The translations under genes and the position numbers were made by a program. From the IMG/VR virus record IMGVR_UViG_2684622669_000020: 34,356 nucleotides of DNA. One strand, given 5' to 3'. This stretch comes from a virus (taxonomy: Duplodnaviria; Heunggongvirae; Uroviricota; Caudoviricetes). The first letter of the stretch is position 1, and each line of letters starts with the position of its first letter. The notes under the pieces were generated by a model. It searched no databases. It was not told the DNA's origin and was given only the letters and a program-made list of their open reading frames with translations. Below are positions 6,195 through 13,742 of the stretch, piece after piece.

Positions 6195-7527
6195 TAATTA
6201 CCATCCCGGCGGTTATGTTGTTCGGGTCACGCAGCTGCGGGTTCAGGCGTTGCAGCTCTGCCGCACGGCTGTAGTCCCCGTACCACTGCCACGCCAGCAA
6301 CAGCAGACAGCTGTCCGCCTGCACCTGCTTCTGTGTCAGCGGTGGGCGGCGTGACAGAACCAGCAGGCCGACATCCTGCACGGATGCCGCCACGTTCTTC
6401 ATGCTCTGAATGATTTCCGGGTACATCAGCCCCAGTGGTGATGCGGTTTCGGTTATCCGTTCGCGTTCGCCTTCATAGCGTTCACGGAACAGCGTGATGG
6501 CGGCCTGTAAGCGGGTGCGCACATCCCCGACCAGTCGCCCGATATCCGCCGGTATAAGCTGTTCTGACTGGGCTTCATCGGACAGTATCACCGTCGCCAC
6601 GCTGGCCAGCTCTGAGGCCGCCAGAACCGCATAAGCCGCTTTCACGTCCTGCACGTCTTCCACGGACGCATCCGGCGGAAGTGCCACAGACGGCGTTTTA
6701 TCACCGCTGACCAGTGCGACCGGCAGCGCGACCAGCTCATCCATATCTGCCATCACCTCATTCCAGCAGGTCATCACGGTCGCAGAACTGGCGACGCGGT
6801 TTTCTCCGGTCAGTCCGGTCGTGGTGGCGGAATCAGTACGCTCCAGCACCGGCACCGCGTGCCCGACATCTGACGTGTGGATTTCCAGCACCTCTGCCAG
6901 CCCGCCGATGAACTTTCCGGGTTCGCTGGCCAGTGACATCATATTGTCGATGGATGAGAGAAAATCGCTTTTGAACGTCAGCAGGGTATTTACCAGCGTG
7001 GCACGCACCGCCTGGATTTTTTTAATCACGCTGTTAATGGTCTTTAAAGGGGCCGTAACAGCGTCAAATAATTCGCTTAACTGTGCCAGTAACTTATCCA
7101 GTTCATCAAATAACTGTTGTGCGAACAGCTCCGGTAACGGGGTGCTGAACAACGCGCTGCCGGTGCGGTTCTCCAGAAAACTCATGTCGATGGTGCAGCT
7201 GTCCGGGCTTTCTGCGTCATGGCGGATGCTGTAGCCGGTCACAATCACCGACGGTACGGAGCCATAAACCGGGTGAATCAGCTCACCATCGCCGCCTTCG
7301 TCCAGGGCGGCGATCAGCTTTTCAAGTTTATATTCGTAATACTCCCCCCACAGGAACGCCGTCATGCGAAACGGTCGCGCCTTGCGTCCGAGGTCGTGCA
7401 AATCCGCCCCGTCAACAAACGGGTATTCATAGACCGCATGGTCGCGGCTGATTTGTTCATCCGTGTTCAGTACATCAAACTGCACGCCACGAAAGGAGGC
7501 GTTTTGCAGGTTTTCAGCCCAGCCCAT
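6178..7527 (-). CDS. DNA circulation protein (Mu N / gp43-like)
   Basis: 449 aa; N-terminus MGWAENLQNASFRGVQFDV typical of the Mu DNA circulation N-terminal domain; follows tape measure. Confidence 0.75.
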   Translation of the reverse strand: MGWAENLQNASFRGVQFDVLNTDEQISRDHAVYEYPFVDGADLHDLGRKARPFRMTAFLWGEYYEYKLEKLIAALDEGGDGELIHPVYGSVPSVIVTGYSIRHDAESPDSCTIDMSFLENRTGSALFSTPLPELFAQQLFDELDKLLAQLSELFDAVTAPLKTINSVIKKIQAVRATLVNTLLTFKSDFLSSIDNMMSLASEPGKFIGGLAEVLEIHTSDVGHAVPVLERTDSATTTGLTGENRVASSATVMTCWNEVMADMDELVALPVALVSGDKTPSVALPPDASVEDVQDVKAAYAVLAASELASVATVILSDEAQSEQLIPADIGRLVGDVRTRLQAAITLFRERYEGERERITETASPLGLMYPEIIQSMKNVAASVQDVGLLVLSRRPPLTQKQVQADSCLLLLAWQWYGDYSRAAELQRLNPQLRDPNNITAGMVINAYAK

Positions 7528-9764
7528 CAGTAAGTTCCTCCCGTACCTCTGTTGCCGTCCTGAAGGTTGTATTTATTCACCGCTTCCGCCACGACCTGAC
7601 CATCGAGCACCAGTTGTGTGGTGAAATTTATGGGGCTGGCAGGTGGTCCCCAGTGCGTGAGGTATTCCGGCTGGGTGATGCGTCCGGGTTGCTTTGATGC
7701 TGATTCAGGCGTTGTGTTTCCAGCGGCTTTGTTCACCTGCTCCGGTGATGGCAGAGCATCAGCTGCGGCTTTCAGCTCATTATCCCGTTTAAGCATTCCT
7801 TCACGGGTAAAGAACAAGGAGCCATCGTCTGCAAAAAACAAACCATGATTATCTGTAAAGTTCTTGATGGTATCGCCAACAACAGCCCCATAAAGTTCTT
7901 CTGCGGCCTCATAGCCTGCGTAAATGGTTACAATTTTTCCGGCTGCGCCCATTATTTTCCCCAGACGTCCCTGATTGCCGGAAGCGACTTCACTGATATC
8001 TTTTACTTTGGATGCCGTATCCCCAATATCATCGGGTTTATCTGCTTCTCCAGACGTTTCATTACCAGTAATAAATTTCAGCCCGGCAAAAGTGACAGCG
8101 GCAGCGGTCATCGCTTTAATGGCGGTGGTGGCAGTTACCACGGATGTGGTTAGTCCTGGAAACTCTTTTCCCGCCCAGGTGATCGCATCAGCTACTGTCC
8201 CGGATGCATCAGCCAGTTTTTTCACACCATCCATTTGTGAAAATTCAATGGTGTTTTTAGCCTGCCCGGTTTTAAAATCATTCGTGTCTGATATGAATTT
8301 AAAATCCACATCACCCGCGCGCTGACCTTCCGGCAGGGTGCGCTGCTGATTAATCGCGTCTTCAACCTTTTTCCGGTATTCCGGGTTGTTACGGTAGGCT
8401 AACAACGCCATCAACGCCTGACGGTCTGCAACCAGCTTTCCGACACCAAAGCCTTCAAGGAGTGTTGTCATCGAATCATAAACAGCCGTCTGCTCGCCTT
8501 TGTCCCGGGCGGATGCCAGTTTCTTTTGCAGCTCCTGATAGCGTTTATCGCTGGCAACAATTTTGTCTATCAGGCTGGACAGCGCGTCTATCGGATTAAG
8601 TCCATTCTCGCGCGCTTCAGTCAGTGTGCCGGAAAAGTCGATTCCCTTACCGTTGTAATTTATCCCCGCAGCCGCTGTTTCAATATCCTTACTGGTCAGT
8701 TTTGCCAGCAAGTTAACCACGTTATTTCCGGCCTCATCACTGCTGCCCGCCGTGATGGCGGCAGCTTCATTCAGCGCCAGAATCTTGACGAAATCATCTT
8801 TGCCTTTCATCCCCGCAGCTGACGCAGCGCCCATTTGCTGGGATAACCAGCGGGCCATGTCGTTCAGTTCAAAGCTGCCTTCTTTGCCCGCTGCAATCGC
8901 CATATTCAGAACGGTGGAAATATCTTCATCCCTGAATCCAAAGGTCTTTTTACCCTTAATCATCACCTTAGCCAGGTCTGTCGCTGATGCACCGGAAGCC
9001 GTGGCGTATTTCATCAGTTCAGGTAGCCACTTACTGGCTGTTTCAAATGAAATGCCATCTTTCAGCAGGGCATCCAGCGTTTCGGCTGCATCCTCTTTCG
9101 TGCCACCACCATAGGTCACCGCGTTACGGATGCTGCTTTTCATCTGCTCAAGACCAGCCCTGCGCCCCTCCAGCCCACCATCACTGAAGGCGGTATTGGC
9201 CATCATTGCCAGCTGGCGTTCGTAGCTCATCTGTCTTTTGACTGGCTGCGCCATAATGGCAGCACCTGCTGCAATACCACCGCCTATTGTCACGGCATTT
9301 CCGCCAAATGCAGCCGCACGGGCAAAGCGCCCCCGTTCAGGGATAACAGGCGTTTTCGCCATCTTCATCTGAGCCTGAGTAACGCCATCCAGTTCACGCT
9401 TGAGTGCCCGGGCTTTTTCCCGGGTGGCCTGCATGGCGCGTTCCTGCTCCTGCGCAGATTCAAAACCGGCGCGGGCCAGACGGTTATAACTGGCAACCGT
9501 CAGATAAATTTCACGCCGGATCTCGCGTTCTGCACGAATACCGAGCGTTTCCCGGGCACGGGCGGCACGCTGTATCTCTTTTGCGGCCTTTTTCGTGCTG
9601 TTAATGCTTTCCTGCTCGGTACGCTTCTGCTCTGCGCCTGCTTTCCGGGTTGCCTTTGTTACACCTTCGGTGGCTTTGATAACCTGTTTTTGTCCCTTTT
9701 CCAGGACCTGCGAGGCTTCGTCCTTCGCAGTCAGGGTCATGCCAACTTTGAAATTACCGGCCAT
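7527..9764 (-). CDS. Tail tape measure protein
   Basis: 745 aa, Ala/Gly-rich, helical, downstream of tube and chaperone; ATG at 9764-9762. Confidence 0.8.
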   Translation of the reverse strand: MAGNFKVGMTLTAKDEASQVLEKGQKQVIKATEGVTKATRKAGAEQKRTEQESINSTKKAAKEIQRAARARETLGIRAEREIRREIYLTVASYNRLARAGFESAQEQERAMQATREKARALKRELDGVTQAQMKMAKTPVIPERGRFARAAAFGGNAVTIGGGIAAGAAIMAQPVKRQMSYERQLAMMANTAFSDGGLEGRRAGLEQMKSSIRNAVTYGGGTKEDAAETLDALLKDGISFETASKWLPELMKYATASGASATDLAKVMIKGKKTFGFRDEDISTVLNMAIAAGKEGSFELNDMARWLSQQMGAASAAGMKGKDDFVKILALNEAAAITAGSSDEAGNNVVNLLAKLTSKDIETAAAGINYNGKGIDFSGTLTEARENGLNPIDALSSLIDKIVASDKRYQELQKKLASARDKGEQTAVYDSMTTLLEGFGVGKLVADRQALMALLAYRNNPEYRKKVEDAINQQRTLPEGQRAGDVDFKFISDTNDFKTGQAKNTIEFSQMDGVKKLADASGTVADAITWAGKEFPGLTTSVVTATTAIKAMTAAAVTFAGLKFITGNETSGEADKPDDIGDTASKVKDISEVASGNQGRLGKIMGAAGKIVTIYAGYEAAEELYGAVVGDTIKNFTDNHGLFFADDGSLFFTREGMLKRDNELKAAADALPSPEQVNKAAGNTTPESASKQPGRITQPEYLTHWGPPASPINFTTQLVLDGQVVAEAVNKYNLQDGNRGTGGTY

Positions 9765-9912
9765 TTTTCTGCTTACCTTTTCTGCGTTTCTTTCTGAGGG
9801 ATTTAAATGACTGGCGGGTGGTCTGTGAGGTGTCCTTCCTTCCTGAGCCGCCGCCGTTCAGCCTGTCAACGGCGGCAAGCCAGCCGTCCAGCTCGGGACG
9901 GCTCATGGTCAT
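9754..9912 (-). CDS. Small ORF in the -1 frame between tail chaperone and tape measure (possible frameshift extension)
   Basis: ATG 9912 to TAA 9756-9754 encodes 52 aa (MTMSRPELDGW...). The same frame is open back to 10032, overlapping the last ~35 codons of the chaperone. Confidence 0.3.
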   Translation of the reverse strand: MTMSRPELDGWLAAVDRLNGGGSGRKDTSQTTRQSFKSLRKKRRKGKQKNGR

Positions 9913-9926
9913 GATTTGCTCTTCGG

Positions 9927-10310
9927 TTATTCCGTAGCGCCCGAGGATGAGGACTGCGAGCCGGAGTCCGGCGAGCCGGGATTCCCGCCGTTCCGCTTTA
10001 CCTTCAGGACGTTGCGTGATGCCAGCAGAATATTAAAATCGTCCGGCGTCATGTTGTCGTGTAACAGCTCCGCCGTCAGTTCTTCCTGCGGAATATCCCC
10101 CAGACGGACCAGCGTTGCCGCCATCACCGCACAGCGGTAGTAATAATCCGCCGCGAAGCCATCCACCGTCTGAAAGCGTTCTTCAGTTTCTTCCAGTGCC
10201 TGCCCGTTATCACGCATGACCGGCAGACGCAGCTCAAAGTTTTTATGAACGGCGCCGTTAAACACCACGCCATCAGACAGCTCGCCGGTCTGTGTATTAA
10301 TCAAAGTCAT
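9927..10310 (-). CDS. Tail assembly chaperone (Mu gp41-like)
   Basis: 127-aa ORF between tube and tape measure; Ser/Gly-rich acidic C-terminus. Confidence 0.6.
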   Translation of the reverse strand: MTLINTQTGELSDGVVFNGAVHKNFELRLPVMRDNGQALEETEERFQTVDGFAADYYYRCAVMAATLVRLGDIPQEELTAELLHDNMTPDDFNILLASRNVLKVKRNGGNPGSPDSGSQSSSSGATE

Positions 10311-10681
10311 CCCGTCACCTTCCTGAGTGCAGCCATTTTGATATCAATTTTCGCTTCACTGTCGACGGTGTATTTCTCACCAACTTCAACAGTAAAGCAG
10401 TCCAGATAGGAGGTGCGCTTACCGCTGTTACTGAGCGGATAAATTGAGATTTTCACACCTTCCAGATTTTCCCAGTCCGGCTCGTTGGTATCAGGGATAA
10501 CCGCCGAAACAGAAATATCGTAGGTGGCAATGCCACGGGCAAAGCCTTTGGCCCTGCCGGTTTTGTTCATGGTCTTGACCAGCTTTCGCCCGGTGTTGAT
10601 CTGAACATCAAAGTCGGTGATCTCGATTTCCTGGCTGTCCACCTCCAGCACAATCGAGCCGACATATTCTTTAATGGACAT
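10307..10681 (-). CDS. Tail tube protein (Mu M-like)
   Basis: 124-aa ORF immediately downstream of the sheath gene. Confidence 0.7.
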   Translation of the reverse strand: MSIKEYVGSIVLEVDSQEIEITDFDVQINTGRKLVKTMNKTGRAKGFARGIATYDISVSAVIPDTNEPDWENLEGVKISIYPLSNSGKRTSYLDCFTVEVGEKYTVDSEAKIDIKMAALRKVTG

Positions 10682-10693
10682 TTACCGCGCTCC

Positions 10694-12115
10694 TTACAAA
10701 ATCATGTCGATGCGACCGGCAAACACATGCAGGCCGTTAACCACATCCGCCGGAACCACGCAGTCGAGACGGTTTGCATCTTTCCCGTTTCGTTGAACGC
10801 GCAGCTTTGCTTTGTTCGCTTCCACGTTCTCCAGAATTTCCGCTTCCTCCAGCTTGATCAGCACGTCATACAGTTCGCTTTCCACTTTTGCGATAGTGCG
10901 GGTGCTGAGTTTTTCGCGCGGGAAGCGAAGGCTGATGCGTTCGCGGCACGCCTTGCGGGTGTAGTCCAGCGTTCTGATGGACGTGATATCCAGTAACGAG
11001 ACGTCAGTCACGCCCTGTGCGTTTACCGTGTACGTACTGACCGCACGCACAATCTGCACCGTGTTACCCGGGCCAACCTCAACCGGCGTCAGGCCGTTAT
11101 GCAGGGCGTTTTCCTGCTCGTTACGGCTTTCACGCTGTGACATTGCGACCACATCCAGCCCGGACAGCGCCAGCGAGTTCAGCGGACGTGCCGGGTCTTC
11201 CTCGCCCGCCATCACAGCGCCGTAGATGGCAGCCAGCACCGCTGGCAGCTTCACGGAGCCGCGATACCAGGGGACGGACACGCGCCCGCTGTTCACACCG
11301 GCGGCCAGGGTGATCCCGTTTCCGAGACTCCCCGTCCAGCCCGCACAGCCAATCGCGCCACGCTGTTCCATCGCGTTCCCGGTTTTCTCCAGGTGCTGCT
11401 TCAGGGCGGCAAGGGCTGGCGCGGTACTGAACGGACAAATCAGAATGTTGTGACCGGCGGCAAAGACCGCATCCAGTGCGGGCTGAATATCCGGGTCCAT
11501 TTCACCGTTCGCCATCGGCGTGGCGCTCACGGTCAGACCACCTGCCGTGGTGGATGCTGACAGGGTGATGTCATTCCCCCAGGCACCTTTGGTCCGGGTG
11601 GTGACCGTCAGCTGAGAGGCTTCCGATTGGTATTCCCCCGTAACCAGAAGCGAAGGCGTCTGCGTCATTGCTTCCACCAATGCCGGAATGATTTTCGACG
11701 GTCCATCACCGGTTTCCACATCCACCGAAACCTGCTCACCGGCAACCCATACCGACAGTGTTCCGCTGCTGATTGCCGTACCGTTGACGGTAACTGCGCC
11801 GGTTGCTGCCTTTCCTGCGCCACTGTCTGCAATACCAATAACATCCAGTTGCAGATAGCTGTTGGCATTAATGGCCGCGCGCGCCATTGCAGCGGCCAGC
11901 GAACCGGCCCCGAAATACAAATCCGCTTCGTCTTCGGAATACACGGAAACGGCATTCAGGGGCGTGGCGGTGCCGCCTGACAGCATCGGGCCAATCACCA
12001 GAACACGCTGTTCGTTACCCGGCAGCGTGTTAACGGCCAGCCGGGTATTAAACTCAAAATGCACACCGGGCTTACGGATGCCGCCCGAAATGGTGTCAAA
12101 CTGAATTTCACTCAT
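10694..12115 (-). CDS. Contractile tail sheath protein (Mu L-like)
   Basis: 473-aa ORF of typical sheath size and position upstream of the tube gene. Confidence 0.8.
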   Translation of the reverse strand: MSEIQFDTISGGIRKPGVHFEFNTRLAVNTLPGNEQRVLVIGPMLSGGTATPLNAVSVYSEDEADLYFGAGSLAAAMARAAINANSYLQLDVIGIADSGAGKAATGAVTVNGTAISSGTLSVWVAGEQVSVDVETGDGPSKIIPALVEAMTQTPSLLVTGEYQSEASQLTVTTRTKGAWGNDITLSASTTAGGLTVSATPMANGEMDPDIQPALDAVFAAGHNILICPFSTAPALAALKQHLEKTGNAMEQRGAIGCAGWTGSLGNGITLAAGVNSGRVSVPWYRGSVKLPAVLAAIYGAVMAGEEDPARPLNSLALSGLDVVAMSQRESRNEQENALHNGLTPVEVGPGNTVQIVRAVSTYTVNAQGVTDVSLLDITSIRTLDYTRKACRERISLRFPREKLSTRTIAKVESELYDVLIKLEEAEILENVEANKAKLRVQRNGKDANRLDCVVPADVVNGLHVFAGRIDMIL

Positions 12116-13400: not shown

Positions 13401-13742
13401 TTACTTCTCCTTTTTGTCCGCTTTTTGTGTTTTCTGTGCGGCGTTCAGCTGTGCGGTCAGTTCACTGACTTTCTGGCGTTCTTCTTCCAGCTGCGCCGTC
13501 AGTTCGCTGACTTTCTGGCGTTCGGCATCCAGCTGTGCGACCAGCTCATCACCCCGGGCCGCGTCGTTCTGGCCGGACGCTTTATCACGCTCCACCACAA
13601 TCAGCATGGGGTCCGCCTTCAGCACCGCCAGCTGTTCCGGGGTGAACGCATCCGCAGGCCATTCCTTCGTGGTTGCGCTGTGTGCCACACCGCAGCGGCG
13701 AAAACCCTCACGGCGGGCGGTAATTTCAATCACCTTTTCCAT
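13401..13742 (-). CDS. Head-region protein with coiled-coil tandem repeat
   Basis: 113-aa ORF containing DAERQKVSELTAQL / EEERQKVSELTAQL, encoded by a 42-bp tandem repeat. Confidence 0.6.
   Translation of the reverse strand: MEKVIEITARREGFRRCGVAHSATTKEWPADAFTPEQLAVLKADPMLIVVERDKASGQNDAARGDELVAQLDAERQKVSELTAQLEEERQKVSELTAQLNAAQKTQKADKKEK

What the first reader, a model, noticed from the sequence alone, without database searches (positions are those of the whole stretch)
9754..10035. Probable programmed -1 frameshift extending the tail assembly chaperone
The -1 frame relative to the chaperone is open from 10032 to 9754: it overlaps the last ~35 chaperone codons and continues 58 codons to a stop that overlaps the tape measure start. 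This matches the conserved chaperone frameshift architecture of tailed phages (lambda G/GT). I could not find a canonical X_XXY_YYZ heptamer in the overlap, and an ATG at 9912 could instead start an independent 52-aa ORF.
Basis: partly seen in the sequence, partly recalled or inferred. Interest (0 to 1): 0.6.

Follow-up and report, generated by a model that had tools for sequence, protein, structure and literature searches.

The report
Tail chaperone frameshift in Mu-like prophage
A Mu-like E. coli prophage almost certainly makes a longer version of its tail assembly chaperone by a programmed backward ribosome slip at an unusual short site (A_AAG); this trick is well known in tailed phages but is not annotated for this gene family.

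Summary
On the minus strand the order is tail tube (10681-10307), chaperone "G" (10310-9927, 127 aa; PHROG 508 tail assembly chaperone) and tape measure (9764-7527). The -1 frame is open from 10032 to the TAA at 9756-9754.

In about 45 distinct relatives (33-99% identical chaperones) the same architecture is kept. The -1-frame peptide is conserved for 28 codons upstream of the ATG at 9912, and that stretch has no ATG, GTG or TTG. Codon periodicity of substitutions switches from frame 0 to frame -1 at one codon, Lys105 (AAG, 9998-9996).

That codon is always AAG and is always preceded by a codon ending in A (GUA, GCA, GAA or AAA). This is an A_AAG site; in the window it reads G_GUA_AAG (10002-9996). 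More distant relatives carry the classical A_AAA_AAG at the same aligned codon. A few relatives encode G and T fused in frame.

Predicted products are G (127 aa, 13.8 kDa) and a minor G-T fusion (185 aa, 20.9 kDa). No convincing stimulatory RNA structure was found, and efficiency is unknown. This is a new, unannotated member of the lambda G/GT, P2 E/E+E' and Mu gp41 class. It is ordinary in kind, with a mildly unusual slip site.

The parts
10307..10681 (-). Tail tube gene (124 aa), immediately upstream of the chaperone
   Evidence: PHROG 185 tail tube protein, E=3e-35. It follows the sheath gene 12115..10694, which has Pfam sheath domains.
9927..10310 (-). Tail assembly chaperone 'G' ORF (127 aa, 13.8 kDa, pI 4.6): the frame-0 product
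   Evidence: PHROG 508 tail assembly chaperone, E=2.8e-40. The AlphaFold model is folded over residues 1-106, its last helix (89-106) ends at the slip codon, and the tail 107-127 is disordered. There are weak fold matches to tail assembly chaperones, including Mu FS-gp41.
9996..10002 (-). Proposed slip site G_GUA_AAG. The essential part is the tetranucleotide A_AAG (9999-9996); Lys105 is AAG at 9998-9996.
   Evidence: It is the only in-frame Z_ZZN motif upstream of the conserved -1-frame peptide. A_AAA_AAG sits at the same aligned codon in clades with 33-47% identity. The pattern NNA AAG is kept through V/A/E/K replacements. Codon periodicity switches here.
9754..9996 (-). 'T' segment decoded in the -1 frame after the slip: 80 aa (9.0 kDa, pI 11.5) plus the TAA stop at 9756-9754. 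The G-T fusion is 185 aa (20.9 kDa).
   Evidence: Translation. Fused proteins from 43 loci align without gaps across the junction. The C-terminal 52 aa match PHROG 3114, E=9e-19. In-frame G-T fusions exist in relatives.
9754..10032 (-).
9960..9995 (-). G+C-rich block of 36 nt just 3' of the slip site, nearly invariant in the window's clade. It is a candidate frameshift stimulator and/or a dual-coding constraint. It contains possible hairpins: CGGCGGG/CUCGCCG at 9990-9969 and CGGG/CCCG at 9987-9977.
   Evidence: Nucleotide alignments. Folding is no better than shuffled sequence. Each candidate hairpin is broken in at least one relative. Its role is unresolved.
9904..9912 (-). Two in-frame ATGs of the -1 frame (9912-9910 and 9906-9904). 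The first is the database start of the 52-aa ORF. The second is the Met conserved in all clades.
   Evidence: Pairing with the anti-Shine-Dalgarno sequence is weak: -2.1 kcal/mol, against -7.8 for the G start.
7527..9764 (-). Tape measure protein gene (745 aa). Its ATG overlaps the end of the T frame by 11 nt.
   Evidence: Pfam PF10145 PhageMin_Tail, E=1e-20. PGAP annotation.

Best explanation

Most ribosomes translate the chaperone ORF to its stop at 9929-9927 and make G (127 aa). A minority slip back one nucleotide when tRNA-Lys is decoding AAG (9998-9996) in the sequence G_GUA_AAG, so that the tRNA re-pairs with AAA (9999-9997). Those ribosomes continue with GCG (9996-9994) in the -1 frame and end at the TAA at 9756-9754, just inside the tape measure gene. 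The product is a 185-aa fusion: G residues 1-105 plus an 80-aa basic T domain.

By analogy with lambda G/GT, P2 E/E+E' and Mu gp41/FS-gp41 (established knowledge, inferred for this case), the shared N-terminal domain would coat the tape measure protein. The T domain would recruit the tube protein to start tube polymerisation, and neither protein would end up in the virion.

Shown here: the frame geometry; conservation; selection on the -1 frame starting at this codon; the conserved A_AAG; and in-frame fusions in relatives. Inferred: that the shift is ribosomal, its efficiency, any stimulator, and the protein functions.
For: 1. Position. The pair lies between the tube and tape measure genes in a Mu-like contractile-tail module.

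2. Conserved architecture. The -1 frame is open across the G stop up to the tape measure start in every relative examined: about 45 distinct sequences from E. coli, Citrobacter, Klebsiella, Buttiauxella, Intestinirhabdus, Trabulsiella and metagenomes, with 33-99% chaperone identity.

3. Conserved peptide without a start codon. The -1-frame peptide AGLRLAVLILGRYGITEEQI is conserved upstream of ATG 9912. There is no ATG, GTG or TTG in that frame between 10032 and 9912, nor in the first 68-86 nt after the site in any clade.

4. Fused translations of 43 loci align without gaps across the junction.

5. Substitution periodicity. Upstream of the site, minimum changes per frame-0 codon position 1/2/3 are 53/39/94. 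From the site onward they are 14/34/24. Between +39 and ATG 9912 they are 12/29/12 (6/28/10 in the window clade). So the most variable position becomes frame-0 position 2, which is frame -1 position 3.

6. Site mapping. The clades at 33-47% identity have A_AAA_AAG at the same aligned codon, with a -1-frame TAA immediately 5' of it. In L048, L051 and L081 the -1 frame opens exactly at the heptamer, and in L048/L051 G ends 12 codons later.

7. Nucleotide-level selection. The Lys codon is always AAG. The preceding codon is GUA, GCA, GAA or AAA, so it always ends in A although the amino acid changes. Background in these genes is 15% A at third positions, GTA 9% of Val codons and AAG 46% of Lys codons. 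A prediction was tested and held: the 'LKEKR' variant reads GAA AAG, not GAG AAG.

8. In-frame fusions. G and T are fused in one frame, with the predicted junction, in L059 (an A9 run) and in two lineages with an A6 run (P0064, identical DNA in three independent samples, and P0059).

9. The G model is folded up to residue 106, and the frame-0 tail after the site is disordered and low in complexity.

10. Precedent. A_AAG is the most shift-prone tetramer in E. coli and is used by IS3-family elements; IS1222 uses G_CGA_AAG (PMC4066793, PMC5009743). The verified frameshift in phage Mu's chaperone is recorded in its GenBank entry.
Against: There is no protein or reporter evidence.

The site is not a canonical heptamer. 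In E. coli reporters, tetramers without a stimulator were barely above background (about 0.15%) and reached 5.6% only with the IS3 pseudoknot (PMC4066793).

I found no structure that folds better than shuffled sequence (z = +1.3, 0.0, 0.2). I also found no hairpin that all relatives keep: L048 breaks one candidate and L080 breaks the other. There is no Shine-Dalgarno-like element at the 10-14 nt spacing that stimulates -1 shifts.

ATGs at 9912 and 9906 exist and the second is conserved, so some free T peptide could also be made.

The lineages are related, so the codon-conservation statistics are not independent trials.
Confidence: 0.85

Rival explanations
1. There is no frameshift. The downstream ORF is an independent small gene (52 or 50 aa) translated from ATG 9912 or 9906, as PGAP and PHROGs treat it. 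The open frame upstream of the ATG would be incidental.
For: ATG 9912 is annotated as a CDS start in E. coli RefSeq genomes. PHROG 3114 begins at this Met. The Met at 9906 is conserved in all clades. A few relatives have a decent Shine-Dalgarno sequence before it: L048, L002 and L065, about -6 kcal/mol.
Against: The 28 codons upstream of the ATG are conserved as -1-frame protein and show -1-frame periodicity (12/29/12 changes), yet contain no start codon. Anti-SD pairing before the ATGs is -2.1 kcal/mol or weaker in most of the window clade, against -4 to -9 for real starts. The first ATG is absent in L075 and in the sister clades. This reading does not explain the conserved NNA AAG or the A_AAA_AAG in relatives. 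In-frame G-T fusions exist.
Confidence: 0.07
2. A programmed -1 shift does occur, but at another place in the overlap. Candidates are G_GGC at 9942-9939, or a non-standard site within the G+C-rich block 9995-9960.
For: The A_AAG tetramer alone is weak in reporters (PMC4066793). The 36-nt block after it is unusually invariant.
Against: A shift at 9942 would leave out the conserved AGLRLAVLIL peptide. The -1-frame periodicity and conservation begin right at the Lys codon, where KA[ED] is conserved. In the sister clades the -1 frame opens exactly at A_AAA_AAG, and those clades lack the G+C-rich block. No other in-frame Z_ZZN exists.
Confidence: 0.05
3. The open -1 frame is a chance by-product of G+C-rich sequence, or a sequencing or pseudogene artefact, with no product.
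For: Alternative-frame ORFs of more than 100 aa are common in this window.
Against: The arrangement recurs in 56 complete E. coli genomes and in about 45 distinct diverged sequences from several genera. The -1 frame is under purifying selection.
Confidence: 0.01

Closest known systems
Phage lambda G / G-T tail assembly chaperone frameshift (slip site G_GGA_AAG; Levin et al. 1993; Xu et al. 2004, 2013, 2014, as summarised in PMC5009743)
   Same: The gene pair sits between the tail tube and tape measure genes. [quoted passage not shown] The T part has no start codon of its own for its conserved N-terminal region. The A-site codon is AAG. The window's heptamer GGUAAAG differs from lambda's GGGAAAG by one base.
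   Different: The tail is contractile and Mu-like, not a siphovirus tail. Neither G nor T has detectable sequence similarity to lambda G or T (no Pfam or NCBIfam hit). The P-site codon (GUA) cannot re-pair properly in the -1 frame, so the site acts as a tetramer rather than a heptamer.
Phage Mu gp41 / FS-gp41 (verified -2 frameshift; GenBank AF083977 Mu_41/Mu_56; Xu et al. 2004)
   Same: Same genome type (transposable Mu-like phage). Same position between tube gene M and the tape measure gene. There is weak co-linear profile similarity (hhalign E=8e-4, probability 24%) and a weak fold match (Foldseek probability 0.96, TM 0.47, E=0.07).
   Different: Mu shifts by -2, whereas the window shifts by -1 at A_AAG. 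The T parts show no evident similarity. One distant relative of the window's family (L064) does carry its T-like domain in the +1/-2 frame, as Mu does.
IS3-family transposase frameshifting at A_AAG tetramers (IS3; IS1222 G_CGA_AAG) and B. subtilis cdd A_CGA_AAG (PMC5009743, PMC4066793)
   Same: A single-tRNA slip of tRNA-Lys from AAG to AAA. The preceding codon ends in A and cannot itself re-pair.
   Different: Those sites depend on a downstream pseudoknot or hairpin, or on an upstream Shine-Dalgarno-like sequence. No such element could be demonstrated here. The biological context is different (transposition).
E. coli dnaX and IS911/IS150-type A_AAA_AAG frameshifting
   Same: Sister clades of this chaperone family (L002, L052-L058, L060-L062, L065) carry exactly this heptamer at the homologous codon.
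   Different: The window itself has GGUAAAG, not AAAAAAG. The dnaX stimulators (an SD-like element 10 nt upstream and a hairpin) are not evident.

Membership tests
G/GT-type tail assembly chaperone with programmed frameshift (lambda G/GT, P2 E/E+E', Mu gp41/FS-gp41) | Gene pair located between the major tail/tube gene and the tape measure gene | tested here: met
   The order is sheath, tube, G, T, tape measure, then DNA circularisation protein.
G/GT-type tail assembly chaperone with programmed frameshift (lambda G/GT, P2 E/E+E', Mu gp41/FS-gp41) | A second ORF overlaps the 3' end of the first in another frame and ends next to the tape measure start | tested here: met
   The -1 frame is open from 10032 to 9754, overlaps G by 34 codons, and its stop lies 11 nt inside the tape measure ORF.
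G/GT-type tail assembly chaperone with programmed frameshift (lambda G/GT, P2 E/E+E', Mu gp41/FS-gp41) | A slippery sequence in the overlap at a conserved position | tested here: met
   There is no canonical X_XXY_YYZ in the window. A Z_ZZN tetramer, A_AAG, is conserved in all relatives, and the canonical A_AAA_AAG sits at the same codon in distant clades.
G/GT-type tail assembly chaperone with programmed frameshift (lambda G/GT, P2 E/E+E', Mu gp41/FS-gp41) | The two-frame architecture is conserved in diverged relatives, and the shifted frame is under protein-coding selection inside the overlap | tested here: met
   About 45 distinct sequences with 33-99% identity. The periodicity switch occurs at the site.
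G/GT-type tail assembly chaperone with programmed frameshift (lambda G/GT, P2 E/E+E', Mu gp41/FS-gp41) | Homology of the first ORF to recognised tail assembly chaperones | tested here: inconclusive
   PHROG 508 'tail assembly chaperone', E=3e-40, but that is a family label rather than a functional test. There is no Pfam, NCBIfam or PDB sequence hit. The hhalign match to Mu gp41 has probability 24%. Foldseek hits to chaperones are weak, E>=1e-3.
G/GT-type tail assembly chaperone with programmed frameshift (lambda G/GT, P2 E/E+E', Mu gp41/FS-gp41) | The fusion protein is made at a low fixed ratio, is required for tail assembly, and is absent from virions | not testable with these tools
   This needs western blots or mass spectrometry, reporter assays and genetics. 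The only indirect support is the in-frame G-T fusion genes in relatives.
Tetranucleotide A_AAG -1 frameshift signals (IS3/IS1222 type) | An in-frame Z_ZZN motif (A_AAG) that allows A-site tRNA-Lys to re-pair in the -1 frame | tested here: met
   GUA AAG in frame 0 at 10001-9996.
Tetranucleotide A_AAG -1 frameshift signals (IS3/IS1222 type) | A stimulatory element: a downstream hairpin or pseudoknot 5-9 nt away, or an upstream SD-like sequence | tested here: inconclusive
   G+C-rich hairpins can be drawn 5-8 nt downstream. They are no more stable than in shuffled sequence, show no covariation because they are invariant, and each is broken in some relative. The nearest SD-like GAAGG lies only 1-2 nt upstream, which is the wrong spacing for a -1 shift.
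dnaX-type A_AAA_AAG heptamer frameshift | The heptamer A_AAA_AAG in frame 0 | tested here: not met
   The window has G_GUA_AAG. Only relatives have A_AAA_AAG.

The most novel reading that the evidence does not exclude
This chaperone family may be a natural series of recoding-site turnover at one homologous codon. It includes the classical A_AAA_AAG; degraded sites where only A_AAG survives (G_GUA/GCA/GAA_AAG and A_GUA_AAG, as in the window); lineages with G and T fused in frame (A6 or A9 runs) that still keep the old G tail open in another frame; and a member with T in the +1/-2 frame, as in Mu.

If the window's tetramer site still delivers the required few per cent, it must rely on an unrecognised stimulator. 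Candidates are the invariant 36-nt G+C-rich block 9995-9960, the CGG codon that follows the site, or the nascent peptide. That stimulator would be new for phage chaperone frameshifts.
Probability: 0.3. Interest if true: 0.5.

Novelty: new member of a known kind. Interest (0 to 1): 0.3.

Why it matters
Practically, it corrects annotation. In E. coli RefSeq genomes, in Klebsiella phage ST405-OXA48phi1.1 and in PHROGs, the two ORFs are listed as separate hypothetical proteins (PHROG 3114 'unknown function'). They should be one chaperone gene with a joined frameshift product.

Scientifically, it adds a well-supported comparative case of a tail-chaperone frameshift that works from an A_AAG tetramer rather than a canonical heptamer. 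Automated predictors and a careful human reader both miss this type of site. It also offers a compact family in which changes of slip-site type can be followed at a single codon. It does not change the understanding of tail assembly.

Tried and rejected
- Pfam and NCBIfam on G, the -1 ORF and the fusion gave nothing. The PDB sequence search gave nothing and Foldseek against the PDB gave nothing meaningful.
- blastn and tblastn against GenBank phages found only 3-4 distant records, none with an annotated frameshift.
- The genome contigs and metagenome scans with the chaperone profile added few loci, 3 and 7. The viral-contig scan with the profile was the productive one.
- RNA folding of three stretches downstream of the site, and of the Klebsiella-phage counterpart, gave z-scores of +1.3, 0.0, 0.05 and 0.2 against shuffles. 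There is therefore no thermodynamic support for a stimulator.
- Hand-drawn hairpins and a possible pseudoknot were considered: GGCGGG/CUCGCC, plus loop CCGG pairing with the downstream CCGG. They are not supported. There is no covariation. L080 breaks the first stem and L048 breaks the alternative CGGG/CCCG hairpin and the pseudoknot stem.
- I considered that the first base of the heptamer (G) is also selected, giving G_GNA_AAG. This is rejected because L080 has A_GUA_AAG.
- Transcriptional slippage was considered. It is possible for relatives with A8 runs but not for the window, which has only three A's.
- A search for fused homologues with the word-indexed protein search returned only short ORF calls. 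The exhaustive HMMER search found the fusions.
Full report
**Context.** The window is an almost complete Mu-like transposable prophage of E. coli. It carries a Mu-type transposase (33335-31260; Pfam HTH_Tnp_Mu_1 and Mu-transpos_C), a MuB-like AAA protein, a FluMu_N protein and a DNA circularisation protein. On the minus strand the tail module reads:
- sheath, 12115-10694 (Pfam sheath domains);
- tube, 10681-10307 (PHROG 185);
- a 127-aa ORF, 10310-9927 (PHROG 508 'tail assembly chaperone', E=2.8e-40);
- a 52-aa ORF, 9912-9754 (PHROG 3114, unknown function);
- the 745-aa tape measure protein, 9764-7527 (PF10145).

Near-identical DNA occurs in 56 of 5426 complete E. coli genomes. There PGAP lists the tube, the chaperone and the 52-aa ORF as three separate hypothetical proteins.

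**The observation.** One search confirms the coordinates.
- The -1 frame has a TAA at 10035-10033 and is then open from 10032 to the TAA at 9756-9754.
- It overlaps the last 34 chaperone codons and extends 57 codons beyond the chaperone stop.
- It ends 11 nt inside the tape measure ORF.
- No canonical X_XXY_YYZ lies in the overlap. The only in-frame Z_ZZN tetramers where the -1 frame is open are A_AAG (9999-9996) and G_GGC (9942-9939).

An open alternative frame of this length is not unusual in this window. The case therefore rests on comparison with relatives.

**Comparative evidence.** I collected relatives from IMG/VR, species-representative genomes, metagenomes, Logan assemblies, RefSeq E. 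coli and GenBank phages. They give about 45 distinct sequences, with chaperones 33-99% identical to the window's. They come from E. coli, Klebsiella, Buttiauxella, Intestinirhabdus, Trabulsiella and uncultured sources. In every one with the standard arrangement, the -1 frame is open from near the end of the chaperone to the tape measure start.

The -1-frame peptide is conserved well upstream of the annotated ATG. The window reads KAERRESRLAGLRLAVLILGRYGITEEQIMTMSRPELDGWL. The Klebsiella phage, whose chaperone is only 38% identical, reads KADARTAGLSGLRRATLILGRFGISGDRIEGMTVSELTSWL. The window has no ATG, GTG or TTG in this frame between 10032 and 9912. No clade has one in the first 68-86 nt after the proposed site. 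This conserved part can therefore be translated only by ribosomes arriving from the chaperone frame.

Fused translations (chaperone up to the Lys codon, then the -1 frame) of 43 loci align without gaps across the junction.

**Selection test.** I anchored 14 diverged representatives on the Lys codon and counted minimum changes per frame-0 codon position 1/2/3.

| Region | Changes at position 1/2/3 |
|---|---|
| 117 nt upstream of the site | 53/39/94 |
| From the site to the chaperone stop | 14/34/24 |
| From +39 to ATG 9912 | 12/29/12 |
| From +39 to ATG 9912, window clade only | 6/28/10 |

Upstream, the pattern is the normal third-position excess. In 30-nt sliding windows the most variable position is frame-0 position 3 up to -1. 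It is frame-0 position 2 from the window spanning the site onwards (pairwise version). Frame-0 position 2 is always non-synonymous in the chaperone frame, and it is the wobble position of the -1 frame. Purifying selection therefore reads the -1 frame from the Lys codon on, 84 nt before the annotated ATG.

The AlphaFold model of the chaperone agrees. It is folded over residues 1-106, its last helix (89-106) ends at the slip codon, and the frame-0 tail 107-127 is Ser/Pro-rich, of variable length and predicted disordered.

**Where the shift happens.** More distant clades (L002, L052-L058, L060-L062 at 38-47% identity; L065 at 33%) carry the classical A_AAA_AAG in frame 0 at exactly the aligned codon. 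In most of them (L002, L052-L058, L060-L062) a -1-frame TAA lies immediately 5' of it, so the -1 frame opens at the heptamer.

In the window's clade the same place reads G_GUA_AAG (window 10002-9996). Variants are G_GCA_AAG, G_GAA_AAG and, in one E. coli relative, A_GUA_AAG. In L048, L051 and L081 the -1 frame opens exactly at this heptamer. In L048 and L051 the chaperone ends 12 codons later, which confines the shift to 13 codons or fewer.

The invariant part is A_AAG. The Lys codon is always AAG. The preceding codon always ends in A, although it encodes Val, Ala, Glu or Lys. In these genes only 15% of third positions are A, GTA makes up 9% of Val codons and AAG 46% of Lys codons.

I used one case as a prospective test. 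Protein P0026 has Glu at that position, and its DNA turned out to be GAA AAG, not GAG AAG.

A_AAG is the most shift-prone tetramer in E. coli, which has a single tRNA-Lys with anticodon UUU. It is the natural site of IS3-type elements, for example IS1222's G_CGA_AAG (PMC4066793, PMC5009743). The window's heptamer differs from lambda's G_GGA_AAG by one base.

**Products.**
- G is 127 aa, 13.8 kDa, pI 4.6.
- The predicted fusion is 185 aa, 20.9 kDa, pI 9.3. Its junction is ...NVLKVK|AERRESRLAGL... and it has a very basic C-terminus.

Some relatives encode exactly such a fusion in one frame. L059 has an A9 run instead of A8. Two separate lineages have A6. P0064 has identical DNA in three independent samples (L076-L078), and P0059 is carried by L079. 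Both were found by an exhaustive HMMER search with the T part. These show that the fused polypeptide is a viable protein, although homopolymer sequencing error cannot be excluded for L059.

**What is not resolved.** In E. coli reporters, tetramers without a stimulator are close to background, and A_AAG reached 5.6% only with the IS3 pseudoknot (PMC4066793). The 36 nt after the site (9995-9960) are nearly invariant in the window's clade and G+C-rich, and hairpins can be drawn 5-8 nt downstream. Against a stimulator role:
- folding energies equal those of shuffled sequence;
- the pairs never vary, so there is no covariation;
- each candidate hairpin is broken in some relative, L048 for one and L080 for the other.

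The block is also constrained by coding in both frames. I therefore cannot say what sets the efficiency, or what the efficiency is. Slow decoding of the following CGG codon, which would allow a P-site slip of tRNA-Lys, is a further possibility that these data cannot separate.

**Rivals.**
- Independent initiation at ATG 9912 or 9906 is the database view. It fails to explain the conserved, start-less 28 codons upstream and the conserved slip motif. Its Shine-Dalgarno pairing is weak, -2.1 kcal/mol against -7.8 for the chaperone start. It may still occur in addition to the shift.
- A shift elsewhere in the overlap is unlikely, because conservation and periodicity begin at the Lys codon and no other slippery motif exists.
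- Chance or artefact is excluded by the comparative data.

**Comparison with what is known.** Functionally and architecturally this is the conserved tail-chaperone frameshift of tailed phages (Xu et al. 2004, as cited in PMC2628397 and PMC5009743). Phage Mu itself has a verified -2 shift at the same genomic position (GenBank note). The window's chaperone is at best a very distant homologue of Mu gp41 (hhalign probability 24%; Foldseek TM 0.47). It uses a -1 shift at a different kind of site.

I file it as a new, so far unannotated member of a known kind. Its slip site is of the IS3/IS1222 tetramer type rather than the canonical heptamer type.

**Verdict.** It is ordinary in kind. It is useful for annotation and as a clean example of a non-canonical chaperone slip site. 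Interest is 0.3.

Noticed in passing
L076-L078 (Logan SRR29097619, ERR10497653, SRR36121040) and L079 (SRR32022546), gene at locus 1501-2013 in L076 and L079; L059 at about 2768: In two separate lineages the chaperone and the T domain are fused in one 170-aa ORF. The A run is A6 (CTT AAA AAA GCG) instead of A8, and the DNA is identical in three independent samples. The old Ser/Pro-rich G tail nevertheless stays open in the +1 frame and stops at the usual place. L059 has A9, which also gives a fusion. This raises the question of how, or whether, these phages make the short form: by a +1/-2 shift, by transcriptional slippage on the A run, or not at all.
   Followed up: partly
L064 (IMGVR_UViG_3300037067_021325), around locus 2501-2950: In a relative with 31% identity, the T-like domain (MVALIKLGFRLDEVLSMSEHEMWGWI...) lies in the +1/-2 frame relative to the chaperone and begins with its own ATG. 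That is the frame relation of phage Mu's verified -2 shift.
   Followed up: no
window 9979-9971 and 9964-9956 (minus strand): There is a 9-nt direct repeat, CCGGCTCGC, 15 nt apart inside the overlap. It encodes RLA...RLA in the -1 frame and GS.../GS... in frame 0, and it is part of the invariant G+C-rich block after the slip site.
   Followed up: no
window 13401-13742 (minus strand): A 113-aa FluMu_N-domain protein (PF17891) contains a tandem duplicated peptide: ERQKVSELTAQLEEERQKVSELTAQL.
   Followed up: no
P0049 and P0040 (E. coli locus tags O5699_01130 and O5699_01135): One E. coli assembly has fragmentary ORFs in which the end of the chaperone and the T part are read in one frame (...NVLKVKAERRESRLAGL...). 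This is the predicted junction. It is probably a degraded or mis-assembled copy of the prophage.
   Followed up: no
window 10307-10681 and 9927-10310; L001 annotation: RefSeq/PGAP calls both the tail tube protein and the tail assembly chaperone of this prophage family 'hypothetical protein'. Neither Pfam nor NCBIfam has a model for them. Only PHROGs (185 and 508) names them.
   Followed up: yes
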